Positions 7,460-8,419 of a stretch of DNA of 64,000 nucleotides are shown here, piece after piece. The stretch is from assembly GCF_009914755.1 (NCBI RefSeq), contig NC_060936.1. One strand, 5' to 3'. A program made the position numbers and the translations under genes. The number at the start of each line of letters is the position of its first letter. Position 1 is the first letter of the stretch. The notes under the pieces were generated by a model. The model ran no database searches. It was not told the DNA's origin and was given only the letters and a program-made list of their open reading frames with translations. This DNA comes from the human T2T-CHM13v2.0 reference genome, Homo sapiens.

Positions 7460-8419
7460 TTATAAACCGTCCAAAGCACCACTGCCCCAAGACTGTGCTC
7501 CCATTTTACAGCTGAGGGCAAGGGCACTGTGAGGTGAGGGAGAATCTGGCCCATCTGCAGCCCAGGCCCCCGGGGGCGCGCGCCGCTCTTTAGGAAGGAG
7601 CAGCTTTGTTTCCCACCAGCCCTGCACTGTGGCGAGCGGGCCGGGGCTGCCGGGCGACGCCCGGTCGCCGTCGCCGCCGCCGCCAGTGATCCATAGCGTG
7701 AGCAGGACGACCAGCGCCCCGGTGCCCAGCGCCCCCACGAAGCCGGTGAGGAGGCCGAGCGCCAGCGGCCCCGCCCAACCCATGGGGCTCCGCTCGTACA
7801 GGGGCTGCGGCAGGCGCTCCACGATCAGCTGCAGGGCGTCCCAGTCCGGCGCGGGGACCGCGGCGCGCCGGGGGCGCGGGGCCGGGGCAAAGGGCACGCG
7901 GGCGGCGGCGCCGGGCCGCGGCAGGAAGCGCTGCCCGAACTTGCGCAGCTGCAGCGTCGCCTGCTGGTGGAGGTTCTTGCCCAGCTCCCTGGCCACGTCC
8001 GGGCGGCCGCTGCGCCGCAGGGCCCGAGCCAGGCGGTCCCAGGACAGGGACGCGGCCTGGGGGGCCAGCCAGGCCGCCAGCGCCTCCCGGCAGCCGTCGG
8101 ACACCTCTCCAGGCCCGGCTACCCTGCCCGCCGGGTCCTCGGCCGCCTCTCGCCGCCGCCGCCGGCTCGGAGACCCCGACGTGGTGTTGAGCGGCTCAGG
8201 CCGCGCCAGCCGGTCTTCAGAAAGCCGGGACAACTCGGCCTCCACGTCGGGCTCGGGCGCCTCCAGGAGCGACCGGAAATGGCCGCACTCCTCCGGGGTC
8301 AGCAGCTCGGCCAGACGGACGGCTGCGTGAGGGCCCATAGCGTCCACGGCCCCCGCCGGAGCCAGCGCCCAAACCCAGAGCGCCAGGACCAAGGCGCTCG
8401 CCAGAGTCCGCGCCGCCAT
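7460..8419 (-). CDS. TMDD1: Transmembrane and death domain protein 1 (C12orf81), single coding exon, 319 aa
   Basis: First in-frame ATG at 8419 in strong Kozak context (CCAGGG-ATG-G). Signal peptide [24 protein letters not shown], death-fold-like signature LAAWL...[21 protein letters not shown], hydrophobic segment at aa 215-245. TAA at 7462-7460. Position between SCN8A and FIGNL2 fits the known gene order. Confidence 0.88.

What the first reader, a model, noticed from the sequence alone, without database searches (positions are those of the whole stretch)
7685..8419. TMDD1 places a death-fold-like domain on the luminal/extracellular side
The order is signal peptide (aa 1 to about 24), helical region with the death-domain helix 4-6 signature (CREALAAWL...[23 protein letters not shown], aa 110-147), TM helix (aa 215-245), then a low-complexity tail. 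In TNFR1, FAS, p75NTR and UNC5 the death domain is cytoplasmic, after the TM. Type I topology here would put it outside the cell, and an N-glycosylation sequon (N78-T-T) agrees. This suggests a poorly characterised extracellular use of the fold.
Basis: partly seen in the sequence, partly recalled or inferred. Interest (0 to 1): 0.75.

Follow-up and report, generated by a model that had tools for sequence, protein, structure and literature searches.

The report
TMDD1: death-fold domain outside the cell
This human gene encodes a sperm membrane protein whose death-domain-like helical bundle sits on the outer side of the membrane, an oddity that a 2026 preprint has already described and tied to fertilization.

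Summary
Window 7460-8419 (-) is a 319-aa ORF, and every feature sits at the stated residues. These are an N-terminal signal-like segment, a helical region, one TM helix (about 212-246) and a poorly conserved tail.

With a 62-sequence alignment AlphaFold2 gives a confident six-helix bundle, aa 30-72 and 107-162. Its 50 best structural matches are almost all death-fold domains: 46 of 50, Z 5.0-8.1.

Sequence support for "death domain" is weak in human. Pfam Death scores 15.8 bits against a cut-off of 22.6. It recurs in 24 of 62 relatives.

Outside topology is supported by a conserved signal peptide and by two cysteines (C45, C110) that are always both present, 105 of 105 mammals and 33 of 33 non-mammals. 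The N78 sequon is weak evidence: it occurs in primates only, 8 of 105.

[quoted passage not shown] It calls TMDD1 a core subunit of the sperm SPARK complex and reports male sterility in knockouts.

One addition of mine: a conserved convertase-type polybasic site in the helix 3-4 loop, bracketed by the cysteine pair. The preprint's main text does not mention it.

The parts
7460..8419 (-). TMDD1 coding sequence: single exon, 319 codons plus stop, 74% G+C
   Evidence: annotation table supplied with the finding
8348..8419 (-). aa 1-24. Signal-peptide-like segment: a basic n-region (R4), a hydrophobic core, and small residues at -3/-1 (A22, A24) before V25-D26
   Evidence: hydropathy. A24 is present in 104 of 109 rows and D26 in 107 of 109. 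A hydrophobic N-terminus is present in 46 of 53 rows. No SignalP run was possible.
8204..8332 (-). aa 30-72. Helices 1-3 of the death fold, with invariant Cys45 at the start of helix 2
   Evidence: helices 30-39, 42-53, 59-72, block pLDDT 91-94. for Cys45.
8102..8203 (-). aa 73-106. Disordered insert between helices 3 and 4. It carries the primate-only N78-T-T sequon and the polybasic run R86-R90 (R-x-K/R-R type).
   Evidence: pLDDT about 50; motif in 78 of 105 mammals, dibasic in 104 of 105, sequon in 8 of 105; shuffle expectation 2.0 of 26 against 24 of 26 observed.
7934..8101 (-). aa 107-162. Helices 4-6 of the death fold, with invariant Cys110 and the W127-D128 and G138-R-P-D141 motifs. 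This is the part matched by Pfam Death.
   Evidence: aa 108-148; helices 107-121, 127-136, 140-162; invariant columns.
7778..7933 (-). aa 163-214. A stalk, made of a Pro/Ala-rich linker with a second polybasic site (R183-P-R-R186), followed by a conserved juxtamembrane block (W193, D194, E201, Y208)
   Evidence: for conservation. R-x-K/R-R in the linker in 20 of 26 mammals and 12 of 35 non-mammals; low pLDDT.
7682..7786 (-). aa 212-246. Transmembrane helix with a nearly invariant glycine ladder (G222, G226, G229, G232, G234)
   Evidence: hydropathy; helix 212-246. G226 and G229 in 106 of 109 rows, G222 in 104 of 109. TM present in 55 of 56 rows.
7463..7681 (-). aa 247-319. Presumed cytoplasmic tail: acidic next to the membrane, Pro/Gly/Ser-rich, poorly conserved
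   Evidence: alignment falls apart here; pLDDT below 50; flank charge.

Best explanation

How it is built:
- A cleavable signal peptide takes the N-terminus into the ER lumen.
- A six-helix death-fold bundle (aa 30-162) therefore ends up on the luminal/extracellular face. In sperm this means the acrosomal lumen first and the exposed surface after the acrosome reaction.
- A Cys45-Cys110 disulfide staples helix 2 to helix 4. That makes sense only in an oxidising compartment.
- A stalk, a conserved juxtamembrane block and a glycine-ladder TM helix anchor the domain.

How it works, taken from the preprint and not tested here: the domain is not a homotypic death-signalling module. It is a heterotypic scaffold that binds the DCST1/DCST2 ectodomain and helps hold the SPARK fertilization complex together. 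Loss of TMDD1 destabilises the other subunits and makes males sterile.

Shown here: the ORF, its conservation, the fold class, the paired cysteines, and the signal and TM segments.
Inferred: signal-peptide cleavage, the disulfide, the topology.
From the preprint: complex membership, DCST1/2 binding (AlphaFold plus co-IP) and knockout sterility.
For: ORF and residue positions.

Conservation:
- 108 mammalian orthologues.
- 83 representatives at E <= 0.001, including non-mammals with the same layout.

Fold:
- The AlphaFold2 model from 62 sequences has six helices with pLDDT above 90.
- 46 of the 50 best VIA-align rows are DD, DED, PYD or CARD structures, Z 5.0-8.1, spanning aa 23-164.
- The Foldseek top rows are FAS, FADD and RAIDD death domains.
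- Pfam Death is the only death-fold family hit, in 24 of 62 members at E <= 0.01, best 6e-06.

Topology:
- Both Cys are present in 105 of 105 mammalian rows and 33 of 33 non-mammal rows that cover both columns.
- The N-terminal hydrophobic segment is present in 46 of 53 rows and the TM in 55 of 56.

Preprint 10.64898/2026.05.13.724128 (outline, section 8 and found passages):
- signal peptide 1-27, extracellular DEATH domain 26-167, TM 215-244;
- a unique conserved disulfide;
- co-IP/MS with TMEM81 and SPACA6 baits;
- AlphaFold Dcst1-Dcst2-Tmdd1 trimer, ipTM 0.64;
- zebrafish and mouse knockout males sterile.

A second preprint, 10.64898/2026.05.14.724122 (three passages), calls TMDD1 an acrosomal membrane protein.
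Against: - Human TMDD1 is below Pfam's gathering score for Death: 15.8 against 22.6 bits, and only helices 4-6 align.
- No Foldseek match reaches E <= 0.001; the best is E 0.64.
- VIA-align Z values of 5-8 lie in the range that the tool's own note says helical bundles can reach without homology.
- The rows do not separate DD from DED or PYD. The top row is a DED, Z 8.1.
- The family profile against PDB sequences gives only a pyrin domain, at E 0.053.
- The positive-inside rule does not support type I topology in mammals. The C-side flank has net charge -1.54 and the N-side +0.50, and only 5 of 26 rows have more K+R on the C side. It is only mildly supportive in non-mammals: 10 more, 10 equal, 7 fewer, of 27.
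- The sequon is not conserved.
- I had no model coordinates, so I did not measure the Cys45-Cys110 distance.
- I found no direct topology or glycosylation experiment in the preprint text.
Confidence: 0.85

Rival explanations
1. The helical domain is only a look-alike. It would be a generic six-helix bundle that converged on death-fold topology and is not a homologue of death domains.
For: - The human Pfam score is sub-threshold.
- Foldseek gives no match at E <= 0.001.
- Z values of 5-8 are within the range the tool flags as common for helical proteins.
- According to the preprint, other death-domain families enter PSI-BLAST only after more than 7 rounds.
Against: - 46 of the 50 top structural rows belong to one superfamily, and the matches span both halves of the domain.
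- Pfam Death recurs independently in 24 of 62 members, best E 6e-06, and no competing helical family recurs.
- The best single-sequence PDB hit is the MyD88 death domain.
Confidence: 0.08
2. The extracellular death fold works as classical death domains do, by homotypic oligomerisation. TMDD1 would bind TMDD1, in cis or across membranes, rather than act as a heterotypic adaptor for DCST1/2.
For: - Death-fold domains generally build homotypic helical assemblies (established knowledge; also stated in the preprint's discussion).
- The glycine ladder in the TM helix is the kind of motif that can drive helix-helix self-association.
Against: - The preprint's AlphaFold models place one TMDD1 against DCST1/2, ipTM 0.64.
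- Its co-depletion data tie TMDD1 levels to DCST1, DCST2 and TMEM81.
- No data for self-association were seen.
Confidence: 0.1
3. The domain is cytosolic after all. The N-terminal hydrophobic stretch would not act as a signal peptide, and the TM would insert with its N-side in the cytosol, as in TNFR1-type logic reversed.
For: In mammals the flank charges around the TM slightly favour the N-side being cytosolic. No direct topology experiment was found in print.
Against: - The N-terminal segment has the n/h/c layout of a cleavable signal, with small residues at -3 and -1, and is conserved.
- The two cysteines are always both present.
- The partners co-purified with TMDD1 have their bulk in ectodomains.
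- Convertase-type motifs are enriched only in the exposed loops.
Confidence: 0.03

Closest known systems
TMDD1 as described in the SPARK complex preprint (bioRxiv 10.64898/2026.05.13.724128, dated 15 May 2026)
   Same: It is the same gene. The preprint cites NP_001373666.1 / P0DPE3. The architecture is the same: signal peptide, extracellular death domain, TM, weakly conserved tail. The conserved disulfide is the same.
   Different: Nothing differs in the core claim. My additions are not in the searched text: 0 hits for furin, proprotein and glycos, and the 2 hits for cleav concern trypsin missed cleavages and CRISPR cutting. They are the conserved polybasic sites, the non-conservation of the sequon, the glycine ladder, and the unhelpful positive-inside rule.
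Cytoplasmic death domains of receptors and adaptors (FAS, FADD, TNFR1, MyD88, RIPK1, ankyrin, UNC5; Pfam PF00531)
   Same: Six-helix bundle. Structural matches include:
- FADD 3ezq_B: Z 7.8, rmsd 4.1, 90 residues aligned;
- PIDDosome 2of5_H: Z 7.7;
- MyD88 3mop_A: Z 6.8;
- FAS 3oq9_A: Z 5.8 (all).
The sequence signature is shared in helices 4-6.
   Different: - TMDD1's domain lies before the TM, on the luminal/extracellular side, not after it.
- It carries a conserved Cys pair that, per the preprint, other DDs lack.
- It has a 34-residue disordered insert between helices 3 and 4 in human, aa 73-106. The region aligned to aa 73-109 averages 17.4 residues in non-mammals.
- Its reported partners are not death-fold proteins.
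Other death-fold subfamilies (DED, PYD, CARD)
   Same: They score as well as DDs in the structure search: MC159 DED Z 8.1, AIM2 PYD Z 7.7, CARD disk Z 7.1.
   Different: No Pfam DED, PYRIN or CARD model is matched by any of the 62 family members at E <= 0.01. Only Death is.
Convertase-processed, disulfide-linked two-chain ectodomains (for example the insulin receptor, MET, integrin alpha chains; recalled, not tested)
   Same: An R-x-K/R-R site sits in an exposed loop, with one cysteine on each side.
   Different: Cleavage of TMDD1 has not been shown. The site is absent in squamate orthologues, and murid rodents lack the P4 Arg.

Membership tests
Death-fold superfamily | Six antiparallel alpha-helices in a compact bundle | tested here: met
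   helices 30-39, 42-53, 59-72, 107-121, 127-136, 140-162. 10-residue block mean pLDDT is 88-95 over aa 31-70 and 111-160.
Death-fold superfamily | Structural similarity to solved members across the whole domain | tested here: met
   46 of 50 best rows are DD, DED, PYD or CARD entries, Z 5.0-8.1, spanning aa 23-164. The Z values are modest by the tool's own note. Foldseek finds nothing at E <= 0.001.
Death domain proper (Pfam PF00531) | Sequence match at or above the Pfam gathering score | tested here: not met
   human scores 15.8 bits against 22.6, E 0.015, covering only profile positions 44-84 of 86. Across the family, 24 of 62 members match at E <= 0.01, best 6e-06. The preprint also reports that TMDD1 domains fail a 1e-5 threshold.
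Death domain proper (Pfam PF00531) | Closer to DD than to DED, PYD or CARD | tested here: inconclusive
   Structure rows are tied within 1 Z across subfamilies. Sequence favours DD: only Death is hit and MyD88 DD is the best PDB sequence hit. The family profile's best PDB hit, however, is a pyrin domain at E 0.053.
Death domain proper (Pfam PF00531) | Homotypic oligomerisation | not testable with these tools
   No usable computational answer was obtained. It needs SEC-MALS or co-IP.
Type I single-pass membrane protein | Cleavable N-terminal signal peptide | tested here: met
   Tested by hydropathy and the -3/-1 rule only. No SignalP was available, and cleavage itself is inferred.
Type I single-pass membrane protein | One further hydrophobic helix of about 20-30 residues | tested here: met
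   helix 212-246; 55 of 56 rows.
Type I single-pass membrane protein | Positive-inside charge bias at the TM | tested here: inconclusive
   In mammals the bias runs the wrong way: the C flank has net charge -1.54. In non-mammals it is mildly right: 10 of 27 rows have more K+R on the C side, 10 are equal and 7 have fewer.
SPARK fertilization complex subunit | Co-purifies with and stabilises TMEM81, IZUMO1, SPACA6 and DCST1/2; knockout males are sterile | not testable with these tools
   Reported in the preprint. The partner sequences are not in this window.
Proprotein-convertase substrate | R-x-K/R-R motif in an exposed region of a secretory-pathway protein | tested here: met
   The motif is in 24 of 26 mammals and 18 of 33 non-mammals of A2, against 2.0 and 0.6 expected from shuffles. 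Loop pLDDT is about 50.
Proprotein-convertase substrate | Actual cleavage | not testable with these tools
   Needs reducing versus non-reducing immunoblots or N-terminal sequencing.

The most novel reading that the evidence does not exclude
The extracellular death fold of TMDD1 is made as one chain and then cut by a proprotein convertase (furin-type, or the sperm enzyme PCSK4) at the conserved polybasic site in the helix 3-4 loop. The mature domain would be a two-chain bundle held together by the family-specific Cys45-Cys110 disulfide.

This would explain why an extracellular death fold needed that disulfide. It would also link convertase activity in sperm to assembly or priming of the SPARK fusion machinery. 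A second polybasic site in the stalk could allow shedding of the domain.
Probability: 0.3. Interest if true: 0.55.

Novelty: already known. Interest (0 to 1): 0.3.

Why it matters
Death domains are textbook cytoplasmic signalling modules, so one on the outside of a cell is a real exception. According to the 2026 preprint it sits at the centre of the sperm machinery needed for sperm-egg fusion in fish and mice.

For this scan the value is confirmation. A reader working from raw sequence reached the same conclusion as the specialists.

The remaining open points are all testable:
- direct proof of topology;
- whether the loop is cleaved;
- what the glycine-ladder TM helix and the juxtamembrane block bind.

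They may bear on male infertility and contraception.

Tried and rejected
- Single-sequence AlphaFold2 gave a poor model (mean pLDDT 51.8). I did not use it.
- Homodimer prediction of aa 25-214 returned 'no answer'. The score was 0.00 in both runs, the alignment was not used and the partner's fold was uncertain. It says nothing for or against self-association.
- Foldseek against the PDB gave no match at E <= 0.001. I kept only the qualitative make-up of the list.
- The family profile against PDB sequences gave only E 0.053, to an NLRP4F pyrin domain.
- The second word-based homologue search with A2 returned mostly mammals again. It named only a few reptiles, so I could not attach species names to the fish-like and other non-mammal representatives.
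- The idea that the ORF is a G+C-rich chance frame is rejected. An antisense 182-aa ORF exists at 7782-8330 (+), but the sense frame is conserved across mammals and beyond, and PhyloCSF work listed C12orf81 among new coding genes (PMC6886504, one passage).
- The sequon is rejected as topology evidence because it is primate-only.

Full report
**What is in the sequence**

Window 7460-8419 on the minus strand is an uninterrupted 319-codon frame. The start codon has G at -3 and +4, and the frame lies in a 72-80% G+C island.

- The two quoted helix motifs lie at aa 110-118 and 125-147.
- The only N-x-S/T sequon is N78-T-T.
- The hydrophobic runs are aa 1-29 and 213-249.
- Three cysteines exist: C45, C110 and C304.

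An antisense 182-aa ORF (7782-8330 +) is the kind of frame that G+C-rich DNA throws up by chance.

**Is it real and conserved?**

A word-indexed search found 108 mammalian proteins at E <= 0.001. They come from placentals, marsupials and echidna. [quoted passage not shown]

A profile of 27 mammals, run against 1.84 billion representatives, found 83 proteins at E <= 0.001, 58 of them at <= 1e-10. Many are unnamed non-mammalian relatives with the same layout. Later naming identified an alligator protein and a divergent squamate group.

PMC6886504 (one passage read) lists C12orf81 among the new protein-coding genes found by PhyloCSF in 2019.

**Fold**

Single-sequence AlphaFold2 was poor, with mean pLDDT 51.8.

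With a 62-row alignment (A2) the model has mean pLDDT 70.3. It contains:
- six helices (30-39, 42-53, 59-72, 107-121, 127-136, 140-162), with block pLDDT of 88-95;
- a disordered insert at aa 73-106, pLDDT about 50;
- a disordered stalk;
- a TM helix at 212-246;
- a tail below pLDDT 50.

VIA-align against 48,161 PDB representatives returned 50 rows. 46 of them are death-fold entries (DD, DED, PYD, CARD), with Z 5.0-8.1, aligned across aa 23-164. The four others are a sperm axoneme chain, TPC1, CatSper and a designed protein. Two of the 46, NLRP2 and the egg-lattice entry, I count as pyrin domains from their names and.

The tool warns that Z below 8 can arise from common helical arrangements. 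The rows also do not separate DD from DED or PYD: MC159 DED scores 8.1, FADD DD 7.8 and AIM2 PYD 7.7.

Foldseek found nothing at E <= 0.001. Its best rows were FAS (E 0.64), FADD and RAIDD death domains.

By sequence:
- Human TMDD1 is below Pfam's cut-off for Death: 15.8 against 22.6 bits, aa 108-148 only.
- Its best PDB sequence hit is the MyD88 DD at E 0.12.
- Across the family, Death is the only recurring Pfam model, in 24 of 62 members at E <= 0.01, best 6e-06.
- The family profile against PDB sequences gave only an NLRP4F pyrin domain at E 0.053.

My reading is that superfamily membership is well supported. Assignment to the DD branch is likely but rests on weak sequence signals. The preprint reaches the same judgement with PSI-BLAST.

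**Topology**

I could not run SignalP or DeepTMHMM.

The N-terminus has a basic residue, a hydrophobic core and small residues at -3/-1 before V25-D26. A24 is kept in 104 of 109 rows and D26 in 107 of 109.

A hydrophobic N-terminal 10-mer (mean hydropathy above 2.0) is present in 46 of the 53 A2 rows that have at least 15 residues upstream. Two of the seven misses are mammals scoring just under my arbitrary threshold. The other five are one short-N-terminus row just under the threshold and four rows with long non-hydrophobic N-terminal extensions, probably mispredicted gene models. A TM segment is present in 55 of 56 rows.

C45 and C110 are both cysteine in 105 of the 105 mammalian rows that cover both columns (109 rows aligned, 4 partial) and in 33 of 33 non-mammal rows. 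C304 is not conserved. An always-paired cysteine couple fits an oxidising compartment.

Two pieces of evidence are weaker than one would like:
- The sequon occurs in only 8 of 105 mammals, all primates. Between the two cysteines it occurs in 1 of 33 non-mammals.
- The positive-inside rule does not help. In mammals the C-side flank is acidic (net -1.54, against +0.50 on the N side), and only 5 of 26 rows have more K+R on the C side. In non-mammals the split is 10 more, 10 equal and 7 fewer, of 27.

The topology therefore rests on the signal peptide and the cysteines.

**What is known**

A full-text search for TMDD1 found 12 papers. [quoted passage not shown] I read the outline, section 8 and the found passages.

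It reports that:
- TMDD1 co-purifies with TMEM81 and SPACA6 baits from zebrafish sperm and with TMEM81 from mouse sperm.
- AlphaFold predicts that it binds DCST1/2 (trimer ipTM 0.64).
- It is co-depleted with TMEM81, DCST1 and DCST2 in mutants.
- Tmdd1 knockout males are sterile in both species.
[quoted passage not shown] The layout given is signal peptide 1-27, DEATH domain 26-167 and TM 215-244, with a unique conserved disulfide.
- The family extends to lancelets, molluscs, annelids and tardigrades.

The phrase 'extracellular death domain' occurs in 4 held papers, 3 of them listed. Going by the titles and abstract openings listed, which I did not read further, the other two listed papers appear unrelated to TMDD1.

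A second preprint, 10.64898/2026.05.14.724122 (three passages), calls TMDD1 an acrosomal membrane protein that might bridge sperm complexes.

In the main preprint's text I found no direct topology, localisation or glycosylation experiment: 0 hits each for 'topology', 'localiz' and 'glycos'.

**What I can add**

(a) A polybasic site in the helix 3-4 insert.
- In human it is R86-R90.
- An R-x-K/R-R motif lies in this loop in 78 of 105 mammals, and a dibasic pair in 104 of 105.
- In A2 the motif lies between the two cysteines in 24 of 26 mammals and 18 of 33 non-mammals. In non-mammals it usually ends 7-12 residues before the second cysteine.
- Shuffling each ectodomain predicts 2.0 of 26 and 0.6 of 33.
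- The motif occurs in at most one row in the helical parts. It recurs only in the stalk linker, in human R183-P-R-R186: 20 of 26 mammals and 12 of 35 non-mammals.
- Because one cysteine lies on each side of the loop site, cleavage would give a two-chain, disulfide-linked death fold.
- Neither 'furin' nor 'proprotein' occurs in the preprint text. The two 'cleav' hits concern trypsin missed cleavages and CRISPR cutting.
- Sperm carry a convertase, PCSK4, on the acrosomal plasma membrane (abstract of PMC6607073 as listed). That PCSK4 loss impairs fertilization is my recollection.

Points against cleavage:
- Squamate orthologues lack the site.
- Murid rodents lack an Arg at P4.
- In mammals the run is encoded by a CGG repeat of variable length, so part of the signal may be repeat drift.
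- A basic patch could simply be a binding surface.

I put cleavage at about 0.3.

(b) The TM helix carries a nearly invariant glycine ladder, G222/G226/G229/G232/G234. It is preceded by a conserved juxtamembrane block, W193, D194, E201, Y208, W215. These are as conserved as the death fold itself and are likely contact sites for the multi-pass DCST proteins. That last step is inference.

**Verdict**

Novelty is 'already known'. I score interest at 0.3, because the surprising point is real but published. The convertase hypothesis is a modest, testable extension.

Noticed in passing
window 8150-8164 (-), aa 86-90; also aa 183-186 at window 7862-7873 (-): There are two conserved R-x-K/R-R polybasic sites. 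One is in the helix 3-4 loop between the paired cysteines and one is in the stalk. In human the first is encoded by a CGG repeat whose length varies among mammals, from 4 to 11 Arg. The SPARK preprint text does not mention them.
   Followed up: partly
P0081-P0086, P0088, P0089, P0091, P0093 (Mus, Apodemus, Grammomys and unnamed rows), loop between the two Cys: Murine rodents carry a tandem duplication of the end of helix 3 plus the loop segment. This lengthens the insert, and in mouse only the first copy keeps the dibasic site.
   Followed up: no
P0160, P0168, P0186 and P0187-P0197 (Anolis, Heteronotia, Podarcis, Crotalus, Varanus and others): Squamate TMDD1 orthologues are strongly divergent, at 21-35% identity to human. 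In the three aligned rows (P0160, P0168, P0186) they lack both the polybasic loop site and the juxtamembrane block, while keeping the Cys pair.
   Followed up: partly
P0133, P0137, P0142, P0143, P0145, P0146, P0149, P0150; P0165 and P0171-P0185: Many non-mammal gene models skip exactly the helix 4-5 segment, or start at the juxtamembrane block. That suggests exon borders there. The preprint speaks of exon 3 of zebrafish tmdd1, whereas human TMDD1 is a single exon. Intron loss, possibly retroposition, in the mammalian lineage is possible but untested.
   Followed up: no
window 7782-8330 (+): A 182-aa Arg/Ser/Ala-rich ORF lies antisense to TMDD1. It is most likely a by-product of 74-80% G+C content.
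   Followed up: no
window 7963-8042 and 8151-8650: The supplied annotation places a RefSeq 'silencer' and an 'enhancer' inside or over the TMDD1 coding exon and promoter. These elements therefore overlap protein-coding sequence of a testis gene.
   Followed up: no
aa 246-260, window 7640-7684 (-): In mammals the membrane-proximal cytoplasmic flank is acidic (Gly/Asp-rich), contrary to the positive-inside rule. Many non-mammal orthologues have a basic flank instead.
   Followed up: partly
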